A stretch of DNA of 63,746 bases, filler included, from Reclinomonas americana ATCC 50394 (GCA_048213135.1; 4 parts of 3 records of this genome joined end to end with filler, not necessarily neighbours in it); one strand, 5' to 3'. Positions 1-10,800 are shown, counted from the whole stretch's first letter. Translations and numbers: made by a program. The notes: generated by a model from the sequence alone, not told the origin.

Positions 1-871
1 ATTGCTGGAGGAGTTCTTGGTGGCTCCACTCGGATGCACCGGCCAGATTTTCTGCGGTGTTCCCGAGTCGGAGATGGGACGCATTGCTTCTCTTACTCCC
101 CCCGATCCGTGAGTCCATGCCTATGTGTTTTGCGTATCCACACATCGGCGCGTGTCTGACCCCTCGGCGCAGGTCCAAGATGTCGCCGGAGATGGTCCAC
201 GACCCACTGTTCCCACTGGTGGCCAAGTTCGCCGATCCCACATCGATCACCTTCAAGTCGTTTTATGTCTCGCTCAGTGAGTTTGCTGATCCGCAAGCGC
301 CCAACTCGGCGGCTTGGCGCAAGGCTTCCATCCCGGCGGCCAACATGCACACACATGCGCGCACTTTGGCTCGCCTGTACAGCCCGTTTGCGAACGGTGG
401 CGTTGATGTCGGTTCGTGACAGCTCAAGCACGTCGTCGTATTGGCAGCTTCTTGCTTACGCGCTGTGACAGGTGACGGAAACACGGGCGAGCGCATCGTG
501 TCGGCAGCAACGCTGGAGACCATGACGAGTGAGCACTCGAATGCTGAATCCGACGAGACACTGGTGTTCCCGGCATCGTTTGGCTACGGCTTCATGCGCC
601 GTTGCGTGTTCAGTTTCGGCGTGCCCCACGAGGAGCACCCGCAGGCTTTTGGGCACACCGGCATGGGTGAGTGGCGTCACTTGTTCGTGCACACAACGAG
701 CACTGTTCGAGTCCTGAGGGTGTAAATGCAGGTGGCTCTGTCGCCTTTGCGGATCCGGAGCACGGCATCAGCTGCGCGTACTTGATGAACCGCATGAATG
801 GCTTTGGCGGCACTCGTAGCTGCCAGGCGCGCATCGTGCAGGCCATCTACGACTCGCTGAAGGCAAATTAG
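1..871 (+). CDS. Beta-lactamase-family (EstB/AmpC-like) serine hydrolase, copy 1, 5' end outside window
   Basis: Spliced exons give IPAANMHTHARTLARLY, FGHTGMGGSVAFADPEHGISCAYLMNRM and stop TAG 869-871. Intron positions match copy 2. Confidence 0.85.
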
Positions 872-1638: not shown

Positions 1639-3153
1639 TGCAAGATTGTTCGTATTTTTCCGACTTTGCTCTTCCCTTCCGTCACTCGTTCTCTGCCTCC
1701 CTTCTGTCGCTTTCTTTCATGTACATCCGTTGTATTCGAAGCAGATGAGTGCACACATGTTCTAGACAGTCAAGTTTTATTCTGAACGCCTGCGCAGGGT
1801 TTGACTGCACTCCTTGCCGGGATCATGGTCGACAAGGGCTACTTGTCGTTCGACACGCCAGTGGAGGAGCTGTGGCCCGAGTATTGCCGCGTGAGTCGCC
1901 TCTGTCGTGGACAAGCCTTTCTTGCTACGAAGCTCATTGTGAATGCAGAACGGCAAGGAAGGCACGCTCTTCCGCCACTTCCTCACGCATCGCTCCGGAA
2001 GTGCTGCGCTCGACAAGCCACCAGCACCTGGAATCGTCTACGACTGGGATGCTTTCGTGCACTTGCTGGAGGAGTCGGTGAGTGCACCATTGATGCGCAT
2101 GCTACAATGTTGTGTCGTCATCTTCTCATGAATGCGCCGCAGGAGGCATGTTGGGAACCCGGCAGCAAGCAGGGATATCACGCAGTGACACTGGGGCATC
2201 TCGTTGGCGAGATGCTCATTCGCGCGTATCATCGCCACCATCCCGATCGCCCCCGTCCCACATTCAGCGGACTGCTGGAGGAGTTCTTGGTGGCTCCACT
2301 CGGATGCACCGGCCAGATATTCTGTGGTGTCCCCGAGTCGGAGATGGCGCGCATCGCCACCCTCATCCCCTTGGATCCGTGAGTCGTCCATGGCAGCGTG
2401 CCCAAGTCGTCTGTAAAAAGCACTCACACTGGTGGCAGAGCCGGCGTGCCAGCCGATGTGGCCAACGATCCAGTATTCCCCATGTTGGCCAAGCTCTACG
2501 ATCCCACATCCTTCACCATCAAGGCAATCTACGGCAGCCTCCCCGACCTCGCCAACCCGCAGGTGCGAAACACGCCGGAGTGGCGCAAGGCCAGTATTCC
2601 CTCGGTCAACATGCACACGCACGCTCGTGGCCTGGCGCGCCTGTACAGCCCGTTTGCGAATGGCGGCATCGATGTTGGTTCGTCCTTCGCCTGCCTGCTC
2701 GATCCTTTTTTTGGTGACTGCAGCTTATATACAGCGACAGGTGACGGAAACACGGGCGAGCGCGTCCTGTCGGCGGAGACACTGGAGGTCATGACCAGTG
2801 AGCACTCGGAGGCGGCATCGGACGAGACACTGGTGTTCTCGGCATCGTTCTCCATGGGCTTCATGTTGAAGAATCTGTTCAATGGTGGCGTCTCATACGC
2901 AGAGCATCCGCGTGTGTTTGGCCACAACGGAACAGGTGAGTGTGCTTGGGCGACAACGCCTGCATTGCCAGTGACTTGACCTGAACACGCCGCCACACGT
3001 ACAGGCGGCTCGGTGGCCTTTGCGGATCCGGAACACCACATCAGCTGTGCATACGTAATGAACCGCATGAATGGACTCGGCGGTGCTCGCAGCTGCCCCG
3101 CACGCATTGTGCAGGCTGTCTACGATTCGCTGAAGACGAGTGACTCCCAATGA
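1012..3153 (+). CDS. Beta-lactamase-family serine hydrolase, copy 2
   Basis: MSVHGHCDAAFAPVR start, SxxK motif (FSTGK, 1276-1290), WEPGSKQGYHAVTLG, FGHNGTGGSVAFADP; GT-AG introns; stop TGA 3151-3153. Confidence 0.9.
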
Positions 3154-3339: not shown

Positions 3340-6300
3340 TTACTCGCGCTTGTGACCCGGTGGCGGCGGCAAATTGCCCTCCGTGATCTCGCGCAGCAGA
3401 CGCTCGCGCTCGCGGTTCTTGATGATGTTCTCCACGCGGCGCATCTCACCGGCCAGCATCTCGCCGATCTGCGAGGGGAGTTTGATGTGAGACGGGGAGG
3501 TGGAGGGAGGAGAAGGAGAAGGAAGTGGAGGAGGAGGAGGAGGAGGAGGAGGAGGAGGAGGAGGAGGAGGAGGAGGAGGAGGAGGAGGAGGCGGAAGGGG
3601 GAGGGAGGAGGAGGAAGAAAAGAACAACAATAACAAAACAACAACAGCAGCAACGAAACAACATCAACCAACAACAACAACAACAACAACAGCGACAACA
3701 ACAACACAAGAAGAAGAAGAAGAAGAAGAGAGANNNNNNNNNNNNNNNNNNNNNNNNNNNNNNNNNNNNNNNNNNNNNNNNNNNNNNNNNNNNNNNNNNN
3801 NNNNNNNNNNNNNNNNNNNNNNNNNNNNNNNNNNNNNNNNNNNNNNNNNNNNNNNNNNNNNNNNNNNNNNNNNNNNNNNNNNNNNNNNNNNNNNNNNNNN
3901 NNNNNNNNNNNNNAACGCCCAGCCTTCGCCGTGCGAGGGGAGCACGAACGCGTCTGCAGAGGCGTACAGGCGCGGCATGTCGCTGACCTTGAGCTCCTCT
4001 GTGATAACGTCGAAGCACGGCAGCTCCTCGAACGGAATGTGCAGCTTCTCCTCCGCGAAGCGCACAATCTTCTTGAGAATGCGCATGCGGTCGCGCGGCT
4101 GCGGGTCCAGGTACAAGTAGGTATGCAGCACCAGGCACACGCCATGGTTGCCCTTGTTGGGATTCTCCTCCGTGACGCGGAACTCGCGGAAGTAGGCCTG
4201 CGAGCAAAGAAAAGTGAGCGACAATGCAGTAGAAAAGAGAAGCGCAAAAAAGATAGACGGCACCTCCAGCAAGCCGGCCCAGTTCTTGCGGTCCTCCCAC
4301 TTGAAGATGGACAGGAACACAAAGTGGCAGTTGCGGTTGCCGCGGCCAGTCCTCGGGCATTGCTCCTCGGTCAGTTGAGTGTGATCTGCGCTCACACAAC
4401 ACACCAAGCGTGAGGGACAGCTCGAGAAGCAAAAAGGGAGAAGGACAGCTGATGCCAACCGTGCACGGTCAACAGACGACGACGGCCAGCCGGCTGGCGC
4501 TGCGACAGAACAGAGAATCAGCAACAACGATAGAGGCGAAAATCACGAAACATGTGCCGACTCACCGCGTGGTCGCCACCCTTGGAGGCAGCGAGCAGCT
4601 CGCGAAGCTTCTGGCGCAGCTCATCGTCGACAGCATCGCCCAACTCCGAAACCACCTTGTGGATCGCCGAGTTCAGCGTATCGTCGTCAACATCAGAAGC
4701 AGCGGCAGCGGCGGCGGCCTTCTTGCTCTCCTCCTCCTCGCGGTGTCGCGCCTCCTCTTCACGACGACGCTCCTCTTCCTCGCGACGCGCCTGCTCCTCC
4801 TCTGCACGCTTGCGTGCGTCTTCGAGATCCTTGGCCTCCTCCAACACCGACAGCAGGCGCTCGCGAAGAATGCGCTCCGCCAGCTCCTCGCTGGTTGGCT
4901 GGTGAGCCTCCTTCTCCTTGGGTGCCGAGTGGTGAGCCTCCTTCTCCTTGGGAGCCGAGTGGTGATCCGATCCTGCATCGAACCGGTGAGCACCACCAGA
5001 AGAAACCACAAGGAAGACAGTCAACAACTACGATACCGTGGTGTCCATGGCCGTGTCCGTGATCGTGTCCATGATCGTGTCCGTGGAAGTGATTCACGGC
5101 ATGCTCGTTGGACACCGCGGGTGGCGGCGGAGGCGGCGATGGCGGGGGACTAGACGCCGCCTGCTTCTCGGCAAAGAGACGAGCCAGATTCTCGCGCTGC
5201 ACGAGGGTGACAGTGAGACGACTGCAACGGCTGCTGCTGCTGCATATCGCGGGCGGTGACACACCTCACGCGCGAGGCGCGCCTCCTCCTTCTGACGCTC
5301 CTCCAACTCGATCAACTCGTGCGGTGGCACCACCTTGGAGATCTCGTTCATGTCGGCCATGTGCACAATCAAGTGGTACTCGATGCGCGCATCGCGGTAC
5401 CAGCCGCGCCAGTCGTTCATGAAGGCTGCGAAGGAGGGAAGGACAAGAGAATAGAACAGACGGAGTCAGTGAACAACGCCCCTGCTTCTGCTGCTTGATC
5501 GACTCACTTGCTCCGGGCAAATAGTTGGTCACCGACAGGAAGGGCGCCGTCACGGCCGGGTCGTACAGATCCGTGTCGATTGGGAGTGGAATGCGGTGGA
5601 GCATGTTGCTGGCGAAACCGGCGCGGGCAAAGGCCTCCAGCAGGAACTTGGACGGCACCCACACCTCGTCGACGCGGCTCGAGTGAGTGTACCACGACGG
5701 CGGGATCTCCGAGGCCTCGAACATGGAGCGGCCAATCACGTACGCCGGGCGTCGGCCGTACTGAATGAGACCATTGTAGGGGAAGCGCGGGTACCGCTGC
5801 GGCGTCTTGTGCGAGATCCACACGTCGCGGTACGTTTGCTCGGCCACTGACGGGAAACAAGGTGAGTGGCGGCGGCGGCGGCGGTGGGGGAGAGGAGAGG
5901 GGGGGACACACGCAACATTGGCTGTCGATCGTCTCCGACTCCTTGATCATCATCTGCTTGAGCTCGTTCTCCTTGGACTCGGGGAAACCGGGGCACAGGC
6001 AGTCGTCGCCAGCCACAATGCGCACCGGGTAGTGCTGCGGAGGGGGAAGGCGTGAGACAAGGAAGAGAGGTGAGCGACGCGGAGACACTCTCACCTTGCT
6101 CAGCGCAATGGCAAAGTTGGCGGCCTCGATCATCAACCTGCAAAACACCCGCAAGTCAGAGAGAAAAAGAGAGAGAGGATGGAGAAGCGACGCGTGTACG
6201 CACCCAGTGCACGAGCAGGCGCCAAAGTCCCAAATGACGCGAATCTGCTTCTGTGGCACCTCCACAGCCGCCAACAAGCGCGCCCGCTCATCCTCCGAAC

Positions 6301-6654
6301 GCGACGCCTCGCGCACCTGCTCGGCCAACAGACGAGCCGCAGACTCAGTCTCGCTCTCGCGCGACTCCTCCTCCTCTTGCGCTGGTGGTGGTGGTGGTGG
6401 TGGCGGCGGCGGAGGAGGCGGAGGAGTGTGCGCACGTGGCACTGCGTGACAGCAAGTGAGTTATCCAATTTGCAGTGCAAGTTGGGTGATGTGCGACAAC
6501 GGCGTTTGCCATTGTGTGTGTGAGTGTGAGGTGAAGAGTGGACTAAAGGGAGAGGAGAGGAGGATAGAGTGTGCGTGAGTGAACGAGGAGAGGTGCAAAG
6601 ATACGCATTTCTCTTTGTGCAAATGTGTGTATGCGTGAGTGATAGTGTGTGTGC

Positions 6655-6693
<39 letters not shown>

Positions 6694-7293
6694 CGTGTGT
6701 GAAGGCGAGGAGGAGTGAGTGACACGTGTGACTAACACAAGAGAGTGAAATGCACAGTCAACGCACGTCAGTCGACGCCTTTCTCTCTCACACACACAGT
6801 GTGTTGCGCGTGCGTGTGCGTAGTGCGCGTGTGCGTGTGTGCACGAGTAAGAGAGCGCGCGTGCACACAAGTAAGCATGATTCGACACACACGGAGAAAC
6901 ACCACTTTCCCTCCCTCTCACTCTCTCACACACACACTCTCTCTTACCTTCCTCCTCCTGCTGCTGCTCCTCACGCCGATGCTCATCCCGCTGCTGCTGC
7001 TGCTGCTGCTGCTCATGAGGATGCGGATGATGGTGCCCGCCCAACTCCGCCACCTCTTCCATTGCCTTTCTCTGCTCCTCCTCCATGGCCCGCAACCGCT
7101 CCTCCTCCTCCTCCTGCTCAATGCGCTGGCGGTGGTACTCGGCCTCATCCTCGCTGCGGTGCGAGTATCGGTGCGGTTTGCCCGTGCGATTCGCGCTCAG
7201 TGAGATCAGTAAGAGGAGGCCGCCTACCACGCCTACAATGATGAGCCACCCGCGTGGACTCACGTGTGACCACCAGTGACGTGAGCGACGCAT
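3340..7293 (-). CDS. Type II membrane glycosyltransferase, family 4 (GT-B fold)
   Basis: Signal anchor WLIIVGVVGGLLLLISL; RSMFEASEIP..VDEVWVPSKF; FVFLSIFKWEDRKNW; LYASADAFVLPSHGEGW (GT4 E-x7-E region running into the gap). C-terminal part is interrupted by an N-gap. Confidence 0.85.
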
Positions 7294-7542
7294 TTCCCGA
7301 CAATGAGAGTGAGAGAGATTGCAATTGTGCAGTGTGGAGGGCGGGAAATTTTGTGGCGTTTTCGCGCGCTTATTTGCCGGTGACGATACCACCCCGAGCT
7401 GGTCAAAGACATAGCTTGAGAGTATGAGACTTTGCGTGATTAGGGGCAGCACAAAAATCTAGAGGCTTGCGTACGACGGAGGAAGGCTCTAAAACGAACT
7501 CAAAATACCGATGCATTGATATTGCAACCCTTCTCCTCTCCG

Positions 7543-7680
7543 TCCTCCTCCTCCTGCTCAATGCGCTGGCGGTGGTACTCGGCCTCATCCTCGCTTCGAT
7601 GTGCGAATCGGTGCGGTTTGCCCGTGCGATTCGCACTCAGTGAGATGAGTAACAGAAGGCCGCCGACGACGCCTACTATA
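7543..7680 (-). other. Diverged duplicate of GT4 exon 1 segment (7103-7240): alternative first exon or pseudo-exon
   Basis: Ungapped alignment at offset 440; encodes IVGVVGGLLLLISLSANRTGKPHRFAHRSEDEAEYHRQRIEQEEE; differences are mostly synonymous. Confidence 0.9.
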
Positions 7681-7821
7681 ACGAACTCAGGAGCAGCCCG
7701 CTCAGTTGGACCACGGGACGCAGAAGGAGCATCTCGATCGCGCAGCCTGATTGCCTCGCCGTATTTTACAAAACGGCAACCGGTCGGCTGAACGGACGGT
7801 GAATCACACTCGGCGTTGGTC

Positions 7822-10800
7822 ATGGAGGAGGAAGAAGGTGCGCCTTTTGCGCGGGGTATTTGTGAGCGATAGACAGTGAAGCACAGAGAGAGGCGATGAC
7901 GCGCGCACAACGAGAGAGAGAAGCGATCGTCGCCTCAAACCAGTAACGTCCAATGCACGCGCTCACTTCTCTCTTCTTTCACACAGGCGACTGGAACATC
8001 ACAGTGGAAGATGTCGGTACCTCCTTCATCCGGCTCTCATGGGAGCCCCCCGTGGCTCCAGAGCCCGGCAAAGACGTTGAGTGTTGGTCGAAAAGAGATG
8101 ACTCACTCAACGATCACTCGCTCTCTCACTCACTTCTCTCTCCCTCTCTCACACACAGATCTTTACGTACACGATCCAGATCAAAGACCACGAGGCCGGT
8201 GGCGCAGGACGCGATCAGTTCGAAAAGGTCACTCTCTTTTCTCGATCGCTCTCTCTCCCCCACTCATCTCTTCGCGTCTCCTCAGTGTGGCATCAATCGC
8301 TTCCTGATCACCGATCTGGACGCCAATCACTGCTACTGGATCTTCCTCACCGCCGTCAACGCCAGCAACCGGACTGTGGCACAGACCAACTTTTACGTGC
8401 TCACGGCGGCGCACACGCGACCGCTGCACCTCGTGGAGGCCTCCGAGGACTTTGCGGTGGTGGCACTGGGAAGTGAGCCCAAGGCCGCCTCCGCCAAGCG
8501 ACACAAGCATAAGCAGCAGTCGCAGTCGCAGTCACAGCAGCAATCGCAGGCGCGGCATCGGTCGAAGCGCAAGGGGAAGCATCAGACGCCGTCGTCGTCG
8601 CGCGATTCGCCTGGCAACATGCCCAAGTCACATGCGGCGCGGTCGAAGAGCAAGCACTCGCCGGGTGAGTGCTGCGTGATACGGTCTGTTGGTCACGAGT
8701 TGTGTTCACGCCTCATTGTGTGGCGCAGCGATCTCCGATCTGTCGACCAACTCGCTCGGCACGTTTCTCGGCACCGACGACGACGTGTCGGGATTGGAGG
8801 ATGGAGACTCGGCGATTCTGGGAGATGATGACGACGACGGCATTGGGGATCTCGATGCTGATGACGACGATGATGACGATGATATTGACAGCAGTCTGGC
8901 CGACGAGGTTGATTCCGACGATGATGATGACGACCGACCAGGCTCCAACTCGGTGGTGGAACATCGTGTCTTTTTTGCGGAATTGTCGGATTTTCTGCGC
9001 CTGGGGATTGGAGCCATTGAGGAGTACCGATTGCCTGGTGGCAGTGGGTCGACGCCATCGCTGCAACGCACGACGTCGTCGTCGTCGGCGGCGGGGAATG
9101 GTCATTCCACTCGCGTAATCAAACCCACGCACAGCGATGCTGCGGTGAGGATGATGCACAGACACACCCGTCCTCGGTCTCTCGCCCAACTCTCTTGTCA
9201 TCTCGTCGTCTGTTTGCATTCATCTTTTCCACTTGCCAGTGTTAGTCTTCCTGCTCTGCTGCGCTTGTCGGGCTGTTCTGTTGGTATTCACCTCTCTGTC
9301 GTGCTGCACTGGCTCTTGTTCTCGTTTCTTGCTGCCGTTGGTTAATCATATTTCCTCCTTCCTTCCACCTTCTCCTCAGCCTCTTCGTCTCGCCCACCTT
9401 TCGCTCACTCACACTCCCGCAGCGCGAATCACAACTGACACGCGAGGCGATGAATCGAGCGCATCGCCTGTTCACCGAGTACGCTGAATGGCGCAGCGAT
9501 GATTTGTTCATTGACAACGAGCCGTTCCGTGCGGACTGGGACATGGATGTGGGACCCGTGACCCTCTACCCCTCCACCAAGATGGCGCACTTGGCCGCCA
9601 GCCGTTTCGATGGAGCAAGTCGTGCAGGTAGTGGCCGTCGTCATTTTGACTTCTCGCAGTGTGGGCCGACTCTCACTGCCTCCTTTTGCAGGCACCTCGA
9701 AGAGTGAAGTTCTCAAGCTTCTCGACAGCGTCTCGTCGGGTGGCAAGAGCGCGGTCATGGCATTCGAGTGCGACGCATTCCACGTGGCCGATCACGGTCC
9801 ACTGGTGTTGAATGATGTCGGCCTGATGTCGGAGGTGGATTTGGCGCGAGTCGGGCTGCTCCGGCAGAGTCAGAGTCAGCGTCGTGGAAGCCGACCGAAT
9901 ATGTTTGGTGAAAGTTGAGTGCGGCGAGGTTGTGCAGGGAGGCCACCGAGCACATCGTTGCTGGCACTTGAGATTGTGTTTCTCTTTGAAGCATCCTCAC
10001 TGCCTTCCACCTGTCTCGTTGGCCCTCATCTGTTCGTCTCCCTGCACGCCATTTGTTTGTCTTTCTTCTCTCTCTCCATATCTTTGCTGTTGTTGTTGAT
10101 ATGCTGGATATGGTTGAAGTTGGTCATCAAGACAGCTGTTTGTTTGTCTGCCTCTTCTTTCTCTCTCTCCCTATCTTTGCTGTTGGTGTTGATATGTAAG
10201 TTGGTCGTCAAGCCGGCTGGTTGTTTGTCTGCCTCTTCTTTCTCTCTCTTTCTCGGTCTCTGTCTCATGGAGGAACCCTCTTATCTGTTTCATTCCACTC
10301 TCTGAACTCAGTTTTTCTCTCCATCTACTCCGTCGGGCTGCCTGCTTATCTGCGTCTCCCTTTCCCCAATCTTTCCCTCTCCCTCTGTTTCCCCTTCTCC
10401 CCCCCCCCCCCTCCTCCCCTTCTCTTCCTCTCCCTCAACCTCTTCTCTCACTTTTGCATCCACCCAGACGACGATCAAACCGAAGGCAGCAAGAGACATC
10501 GCCTCGACACTCGGTTCATGCCTCCGCTGCCGCCAACCGACTCGCGAGACTCGGACGAGGAGAGTGGCGATGAAAAGGTATGTGACGATGCGCGCATAGG
10601 TTGCCCCACATCTTCATCATTCTACACCAGCTCACATCATCTCTCATCGCATCAGCCTGCCGTCTCGAAACCCATGTTTAGAAAGCGCAAGAATATGAGC
10701 CTATCATTAGGCGGCAATCCGCGACCCGACGGCAGTCACCAGGATGGCGCGGCGCGCTCGCCTTCCAGTGCCACCCGGCCGCAGAGTGCTGCACTGGCGG

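What the first reader, a model, noticed from the sequence alone, without database searches (positions are those of the whole stretch)
7493..7823. Synonymously diverged copy of the GT4 signal-anchor exon, bounded by a 10-bp direct repeat
Seen: 7543-7680 copies 7103-7240 with no indels. Nine codons differ synonymously (ATT/ATA, GTG/GTC, GTA/GTC, CTC/CTT, CTC/CTG, CTG/CTC, AGC/AGT, CAC/CAT, CGC/CGA) and two change amino acid (YS to FA). AACGAACTCA occurs at 7493-7502 and 7680-7689, the latter exactly at the homology edge. The copy lies in an open frame from an ATG at 7823 (overlapping the FN3 gene ATG in CATG) to a stop at 7500. It has a phase-1 donor (AAG G|GTTGCA, 7528) matching the phase of real exon 1. 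Inference: protein-level selection, so either an alternative first exon giving a different cytosolic tail, a membrane microprotein mimicking the enzyme anchor, or a captured gene fragment. The changes are not adenine-specific, so it is not DGR-like.
Basis: partly seen in the sequence, partly recalled or inferred. Interest (0 to 1): 0.78.

Follow-up and report, generated by a model that had tools for sequence, protein, structure and literature searches.

The report
Displaced duplicate gene start, copy-variable
A short piece of the first exon of a sugar-transferring enzyme gene is really repeated just upstream of the gene, but the second chromosome copy in the same assembly carries three copies that decay with distance, so it looks more like a pushed-aside former gene start than a conserved alternative first exon, although protein-coding use of one copy cannot be excluded without RNA.

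Summary
Observation confirmed: 7543-7679 copies 46 codons of exon 1 (9 silent and 2 replacement codons), with a 10-bp repeat, a 107-codon frame and a phase-1 GT. The second haplotype (contig C47) has three copies at about 440-bp spacing. The middle one is a whole displaced gene start (promoter, ATG, core) differing from the working exon by 5 silent and 1 replacement change. The outermost, the orthologue of the window copy, has two 4-nt insertions, 4 replacements and a nonsense codon, and lacks the 7823 ATG and the GTTGCA donor. The junction is shared by both contigs, so this is not a simple misassembly. Best reading (0.55): a partial duplicate whose silent bias was built up while the sequence worked as a gene start, now expanded and displaced by unequal exchange between the repeats. 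Against it: the window copy's silent divergence (about 0.3) is 4-6 times the allelic level, and a residual excess remains (p 0.014-0.037; 0.05-0.24 after removing allelic differences), so a translated copy stays possible (0.22). No RNA runs or close relatives were found. The scan noted two similar silent-diverged duplicated gene starts elsewhere in this genome (unchecked here).

The parts
7543..7679 (-). Copy of exon-1 codons 19-64 (signal anchor and start of the stem), frame intact
7103..7239 (-). Source segment inside the working exon 1
6948..7293 (-). Working exon 1 of the GT4-family gene (115 codons plus 1 nt; hydrophobic segment from residue 16; donor G|GTAAGA)
   Evidence: no replacement change against C47 in the core
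3914..7293 (-). GT4-family glycosyltransferase gene model, 11 exons, 744 codons without a stop, cut by an N gap at its 3' side
7680..7689 (.). Direct repeat, copy at the upstream edge of the duplicate (match extends to 7676)
7493..7502 (.). Direct repeat, second copy (match extends to 7489); supplies the TGA stop; one mismatch in both C47 copies
7503..7542 (-). Junction sequence after the copy (reads ...NINASVF); present 3 times in the assembly, all at this locus
7527..7528 (-). Candidate phase-1 donor G|GTTGCA; context differs in C47 (GTCAAT, GTCACA)
7500..7823 (-). 107-codon open frame through the copy; ATG absent and 4-5 indels in C47
7294..7492 (-). Presumed promoter/5' leader of the GT gene; part of the ~440-bp unit that is present twice in C47
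   Evidence: promoter role inferred from position
7690..7821 (.). Unique flank, probably 5' leader/promoter of the FN3-like gene; only a doubtful likeness to the GT 5' region
7822..7837 (+). First exon of the head-to-head FN3-like gene (ATG overlaps the 7823 minus-strand ATG)
   Evidence: FN3 label only weakly supported (E 0.068)
6441..6443 (-). Exon-2 acceptor (AG 6443-6442) and first base of exon 2

Best explanation
The copy is a real, old partial duplicate of the gene start and is now most likely a dispensable, displaced remnant. Step 1 (inferred): a local duplication put the exon-1 core 440 bp upstream, flanked by a 10-14 bp repeat, either as a whole promoter-ATG-core unit whose front part was later deleted, or by repair synthesis from the nearby exon. 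Step 2 (product shown on C47; mechanism inferred): the two 138-bp repeats misalign and exchange, which duplicates the 440-bp unit and pushes the previous gene start outward while a new one takes over. A start displaced this way differs from the working exon almost only at silent sites, because it was a working exon of an allele until displaced. Step 3 (shown on C47): the outermost copy decays. The window copy's silent bias is then mostly inherited from time spent as, or being overwritten by, a working exon 1, not proof of present use.
For: Three copies on C47 against two in the window, five in the whole assembly. The C47 middle unit has promoter, ATG (C47:168826), N-terminus and core of the real exon but the copy's junction; it differs from the C47 working exon by 5 silent and 1 replacement change in 45 codons, one of the five at the junction. 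Its switch from real-type to copy-type sequence falls in or after codons 29-44, where the copies are identical. The outer C47 copy has 4 replacements, 1 nonsense codon, 1 silent change and two 4-nt insertions inside the core: graded decay outward. ATG 7823 is absent in C47 and the 144-nt flank has 8 substitutions and 5 gaps. All 12 of 13 modelled donors that could be read in C47 are identical there; the candidate donor is not, and both GTT-type donors follow a non-G base and have G at +6, unlike G|GTTGCA. Two of the nine silent differences (GTG/GTC, GTA/GTC) are allelic variants of the real exon, one is junction sequence, and AGT is shared with the C47 middle unit. The two C47 spacers differ at 22 of 324 sites, about the allelic level.
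Against: The window copy differs from either working allele by 10 silent changes in 32 sites (0.31), against 0.054 for the gene (27 of 499 sites) and a median 0.074 over 81 filtered coding segments; so it is not simply the other allele, and no donor lineage that divergent was seen. It has only 2 replacement changes and an intact membrane segment. Without the junction codon, P(9 of 11 silent) is 0.014-0.037 if only the real exon was selected. Five of five polarisable silent differences put the rarer A/T-ending codon in the copy, suggesting that they arose on the copy's own branch. Its private silent changes are interleaved with markers shared with the C47 outer copy, which simple conversion from a real allele does not explain well. 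The damaged C47 frame is restored overall (+4, +4, -2) and stays stop-free to the same TGA.
Confidence: 0.55

Rival explanations
1. The upstream copy is still translated. In the window haplotype a transcript starting inside the FN3-like gene uses ATG 7823 and either splices at 7529 to exon 2 (enzyme with a 46-residue cytosolic tail and a shorter stem) or ends at 7500 (107-aa membrane microprotein mimicking the anchor). In C47 the middle unit (own promoter and ATG; 76 aa if unspliced) has taken over the role, releasing the outer copy.
For: Residual silent excess. Each haplotype keeps one intact in-frame copy next to the real exon, both ending NINASVF with a silent TTT/TTC before the same stop. 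Window copy private changes 3-5 silent to 1 replacement, against 1 silent to 5-6 in the C47 outer copy (Fisher p 0.03-0.19). Three of 13 modelled G-preceded donors lack +5 G, one being G|GTCACT, so weak donors occur. Six of 21 homologues with an N-terminal hydrophobic segment start it at residue 35-49 (35 examined).
Against: The only in-frame ATG overlaps the neighbour's ATG, so the transcript would have to start inside that gene. ATG, flank and donor context are not conserved in C47. The flank shows no significant coding signal (4 of 8 silent, p 0.13; a non-coding control reached p 0.04 in its best frame). GGTTGCA is not enriched in 264 kb (28 seen, 33.5 expected). The outer C47 copy carries more damage than the spacer divergence suggests if it had been released only by the later duplication (inference).
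Confidence: 0.22
2. Neutral filler from birth: a break in the shared promoter was patched with DNA copied from exon 1 about 250 bp away, leaving a 10-bp target duplication. The silent skew is chance, plus selection on the real exon alone, plus the fact that the finding was picked for this pattern.
For: Repeat beyond chance at the edge; near-match between the bases after the repeat and the core start; removing the 187-bp insert leaves a 341-bp head-to-head gap. After subtracting 2-4 allelic silent differences p is 0.05-0.24. Filler copied from nearby sequence is described in maize (PMC2686159, passages).
Against: p 0.014-0.037 before subtraction; silent divergence 0.31 with only 2 replacements implies little neutral time; two other silent-diverged duplicated starts are noted in this genome (unchecked).
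Confidence: 0.17
3. Assembly or haplotype chimera.
For: The assembly is fragmented (16441 contigs) with two haplotypes; perfect 209- and 222-bp local duplicates seen at two other loci may be assembly artefacts. The third copy on C47 could be a join of two alleles. No reads could be checked.
Against: The same junction and repeat occur on two contigs with about 8% independent divergence around them (27 of 324); no N gap lies within 3.1 kb of the window copy; the copy is 4-6 times more diverged at silent sites than the haplotypes are.
Confidence: 0.04
4. Product of a mobile or homing element (retrocopy, Pack-type capture, or a WHO-like element carrying its own gene start).
For: 10-bp flanking repeat; tandem units with outward decay resemble WHO/FBA1 arrays (PMC7282813, passages).
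Against: No poly(A), no terminal inverted repeats at the insert ends, junction sequence found nowhere else in the assembly, no room for an endonuclease gene in the 302-bp spacer, no Rfam match.
Confidence: 0.02

Closest known systems
Partial gene duplicates, with or without recruitment (Katju 2012, PMC3449122; passages read)
   Same: Only part of the ORF is duplicated; flanking non-coding sequence completes an open frame; paralogues are subject to ectopic conversion.
   Different: No expression or function shown here; copy number differs between the two haplotypes and the orthologous copy is broken in one.
FBA1 fragments in WHO homing-element clusters of Torulaspora/Lachancea (Coughlan et al. 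2020, PMC7282813; passages read)
   Same: A gene end is replaced by recombination with a fragment, the old end is pushed outward, arrays vary between alleles, and some fragments are intact while others are frameshifted.
   Different: 5' end instead of 3' end; no endonuclease gene between the copies; no cleavage or drive shown. It may work alike in outcome, but it is not a member.
Tandem alternative first exons of Drosophila hydra (PMC1904467; passages read)
   Same: Tandem copies of promoter plus first exon, variable in number (true of the C47 middle unit).
   Different: hydra copies keep upstream region, start and whole exon, and at least four were shown to be used by 5' RACE; here the copy stops about 50 codons short of the real donor, the window copy lacks the real promoter and ATG, and use is untested.
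Filler DNA from double-strand-break repair (maize p1 locus, PMC2686159; passages read)
   Same: Insert copied from a site close to the junction; size near the reported range (1-131 bp).
   Different: Filler does not by itself predict a silent-site bias; here the junction part has no identified template.

Membership tests
Alternative first exon (hydra type) | In-frame start codon conserved upstream of the copy | tested here: not met
   ATG 7823 is absent in C47; the C47 middle unit has its own ATG
Alternative first exon (hydra type) | Donor of the right phase and of a type used in this genome | tested here: inconclusive
   Phase 1 matches; G|GTTGCA matches none of 13 modelled donors and is not conserved, but weak donors occur
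Alternative first exon (hydra type) | Transcripts spliced from the copy to exon 2 | not testable with these tools
   No sequencing run was listed
Partial gene duplicate (Katju definition) | Derived from part of a single ancestral ORF | tested here: met
   Five core copies, all at this locus; no other donor
Partial gene duplicate (Katju definition) | Ancestral and derived copy told apart with an outgroup | tested here: inconclusive
   No close relative found: best homologues about 56% on exon 5, none matching exon 1
WHO-type homing element | Endonuclease gene between gene and fragment | tested here: not met
   The spacer is about 300 bp with no such ORF
WHO-type homing element | Displaced gene ends in allele-variable arrays, older ones more decayed | tested here: met
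   2 vs 3 copies; middle copy intact, outer copy broken
Retrocopy (TPRT insertion) | Target duplication plus 3' poly(A) tail | tested here: not met
   Repeat present, no poly(A) at either end; definition recalled, not from a call
Pack-MULE-type capture | Terminal inverted repeats inside the target duplication, repeated elsewhere in the genome | tested here: not met
   No inverted repeat at the insert ends; junction 21-mer only at this locus; definition recalled
Diversity-generating retroelement | Adenine-specific differences between template and variable repeat | tested here: not met
   Differences involve all four bases; definition recalled

The most novel reading that the evidence does not exclude
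In this protist, gene starts are turned over by an endonuclease-free ratchet: exchange between an exon and its upstream fragment repeatedly installs a new promoter-plus-first-exon and parks the old one upstream, where it stays translated for a while as an alternative first exon or a 76-107 aa membrane microprotein copying the enzyme's signal anchor. The two other silent-diverged duplicated starts noted in this genome would be the same process.
Probability: 0.2. Interest if true: 0.62.

Novelty: new member of a known kind. Interest (0 to 1): 0.33.

Why it matters
As most likely read, this is an ordinary partial duplication with copy-number variation, useful mainly as a caution: silent-only divergence between tandem gene starts can arise without the extra copy being used, and the C47 haplotype shows one such case. 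If the upstream copy is translated, or if such displaced starts are a genome-wide class, the locus would be a compact natural test of how alternative first exons or anchor-mimicking microproteins are born; one RT-PCR and one long-read amplicon would decide it.

Tried and rejected
Sequencing runs: none was listed for 5900-8500, so no reads were laid; this is no evidence on expression. Relatives: exon-1 protein search 0 hits among 481 candidates; core pattern 0 matches in metagenome contigs; 48 metagenome loci related to exon 5 had no match to exon 1 or the 6901-7900 DNA; best HMMER hits about 56% identical; no look-alike windows in other genomes. The 107-aa frame has no usable Atlas hit and only a sub-threshold Pfam match shared with exon 1. 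No Rfam match at E 0.1. Idea that the unique flank is a decayed copy of the GT promoter and N-terminus: one in-register alignment scored 3 of 200 shuffles in the window haplotype but 44 of 200 in C47, and 13 to 912 of 1000 over four scoring schemes; inconclusive. Idea of older decayed copies in the spacer: 34 of 1000 for the copy, 238 of 1000 for the real exon; rejected. Idea of a hybrid subgenome at silent divergence 0.3: 76 of 81 segments were below 0.2, and the other 5 lie in a tandem-repeat gene (segments were pre-filtered for at least 2 silent changes and few replacements); not supported in the sampled region. Other duplicated starts: not located in 28 DHHC loci plus 16 wider stretches nor in 30 loci from 128 EF-hand matches. 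Local-duplicate scan of 264 kb and 222 kb: 10 and 7 hits at 84% or more after leaving out one tandem-repeat gene; only the window pair shows a 10:1:2 codon-position skew. The CpG count was faulty and was redone; the Fisher input over-counted and was redone. One GT exon (4972-4566) did not align cleanly at a tandem repeat. Literature: 7 searches gave no paper on endonuclease-free displacement of gene starts or on glycosyltransferase anchor microproteins; the library lacks most subscription journals. Supplements were not read.

Full report
Observation. The duplicate is real. Self-BLAST gives 7096-7239 against 7535-7679 at 90.3%, E 4e-50. The 10-mer occurs at 7493-7502 and 7680-7689 only; such a placement arose in 164 of 20000 random draws. 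It extends to 13 of 14 nt, so the ATT/ATA codon is junction sequence. The frame from ATG 7823 is open for 107 codons and stops at a TGA inside the second repeat; the GT at 7528 is phase 1, like the real donor.

The gene. An 11-exon model from 7293 to the N gap at 3914 reads 744 codons without a stop. Single exons hit GT4/GT1 Pfam families weakly; a 50%-identical homologue has PF00534 and PF13692, and its domain falls among GT4 clusters. Of 35 homologues examined, 21 have an N-terminal hydrophobic segment starting at residue 5-49. The organism was not identified; the best homologues are about 56% identical, so there is no outgroup for exon 1.

The second haplotype. The assembly holds the locus twice, on C152 (the window) and C47. 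The core occurs five times, two on C152 and three on C47; the junction three times. On C47 the cores lie about 440 bp apart. The middle unit carries promoter, ATG, N-terminus and core of the real exon, followed by the copy's junction; it differs from the C47 working exon by 5 silent and 1 replacement change, plus one silent change in the N-terminus. This is the product expected when the real exon of one chromosome exchanges with the upstream copy of another; codons 29-44 are identical in four of the five copies. The two C47 spacers differ at 22 of 324 sites, the window spacer from them at 27 of 324 and 41 of 325. The outer C47 copy, the orthologue of the window copy, has four replacements (one puts Asp in the membrane segment), a nonsense codon, one silent change and two CGCG insertions. 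Its flank lacks ATG 7823 and differs by 8 substitutions and 5 gaps in 144 nt. One oddity: a 2-nt deletion restores its frame, which stays stop-free to the same TGA.

How much selection signal is left. Haplotype divergence is 27 of 499 silent sites (0.054), 3 of 1700 replacement sites and 58 of 1120 intron sites in this gene, and a median 0.074 over 81 pre-filtered coding segments. The window copy is at 10 of 32 silent sites from either working allele, so it is not just the other allele. If both copies were neutral, p is 2e-5. The fair null is that only the real exon was selected: with transition and AT bias, p is 0.008-0.022, 0.014-0.037 without the junction codon, and 0.05-0.24 after removing two to four allelic differences. 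Two silent differences are allelic variants of the real exon and one is shared with the C47 middle unit. Five of five polarisable silent differences give the copy the rarer A/T-ending codon, which points to change on the copy's own branch. Private changes are 3-5 silent to 1 replacement in the window copy and 1 silent to 5-6 in the outer C47 copy (p 0.03-0.19). The flank shows no significant coding signal. So the sequence was constrained as protein for much of its history; whether it still is cannot be shown, and the finding was selected for this very pattern.

Donor and start. Of 13 modelled introns in the two genes, the 12 that could be read in C47 have identical donors; two begin GTT, both after a non-G base and with G at +6. 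G|GTTGCA fits neither that nor the common type, is not enriched (28 seen, 33.5 expected), and reads GTCAAT and GTCACA on C47. Weak donors such as G|GTCACT do occur, so it is not excluded. The only in-frame ATG overlaps the neighbour's ATG, so its transcript would have to start inside that gene.

Mechanism. Most likely (0.55): a partial duplicate of the gene start arose locally (origin inferred); unequal exchange between the 138-bp repeats then adds units and displaces working starts (product shown on C47); displaced copies begin with silent-only differences and decay outward (shown on C47). Rivals: still translated as alternative first exon or 76-107 aa microprotein (0.22); neutral filler with a chance skew (0.17); misassembly (0.04); mobile element (0.02).

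Comparison with known cases. It is a partial gene duplicate in the sense of PMC3449122 (passages). In outcome it resembles the FBA1 fragments of WHO clusters, where old gene ends are pushed outward and decay (PMC7282813, passages), but there is no endonuclease gene, so it is not a member. It fails the conserved-start test for a hydra-type alternative first exon (PMC1904467, passages), though the C47 middle unit has that anatomy. Filler copied from nearby DNA is described in PMC2686159 (passages). Definitions of retrocopies, Pack-MULEs and DGRs are recalled. Seven literature searches (listings and abstract starts only, apart from the four papers named) showed no description of endonuclease-free start displacement.

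Earlier notes. The scan lists two more silent-diverged duplicated gene starts in this genome; I could not locate them, so they are leads only. The WHO comparison came from a note on another genome and changed my reading. No sequencing run was listed.

Verdict. Real feature; new member of a known kind; interest 0.33. The most novel reading left open, a recurring ratchet of gene-start replacement with parked starts still translated, has probability 0.2 and would deserve 0.62.

Noticed in passing
G000:C47:168330-169225 (L002): Three-copy version of the locus; the middle unit could encode a 76-aa anchor-only peptide from a duplicated promoter and ATG, or splice at G|GTCACA to exon 2.
   Followed up: yes
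L002, outer copy near C47:169100-169150: Both insertions are the palindrome CGCG; with a later 2-nt deletion the frame is restored and stays stop-free. Unexplained; may be chance.
   Followed up: partly
C47 spacer next to the working exon (about C47:168500-168560): A cluster of about 14 differences in 45 nt against both other spacers, suggesting one complex replacement event.
   Followed up: no
window 3-862 and 2273-3135: Two segments 70% alike with sub-threshold beta-lactamase-family (PF00144) matches and an in-frame stop at 2380-2382; probably tandem serine-hydrolase paralogues, further copies nearby on both contigs.
   Followed up: partly
window 5916 and 8076: Two modelled introns start GTT..G after a non-G exon base, in line with a second donor class noted elsewhere in this genome.
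   Followed up: partly
window 4499-4484: A 16-nt micro-exon is needed to keep the GT gene in frame; donor C|GTCGTC, same in C47.
   Followed up: partly
L080 2338-2546/2972-3180 and L088 1734-1955/2516-2737: Perfectly identical 209- and 222-bp local duplicates absent from the partner contigs; possibly assembly artefacts, not checked.
   Followed up: no
window 6947-6442: Intron 1 is 506 nt, far longer than the other GT introns (about 60-100 nt), and stays open in the exon-1 frame in this haplotype only (441 vs 234 codons stop to stop); likely due to microsatellites.
   Followed up: no
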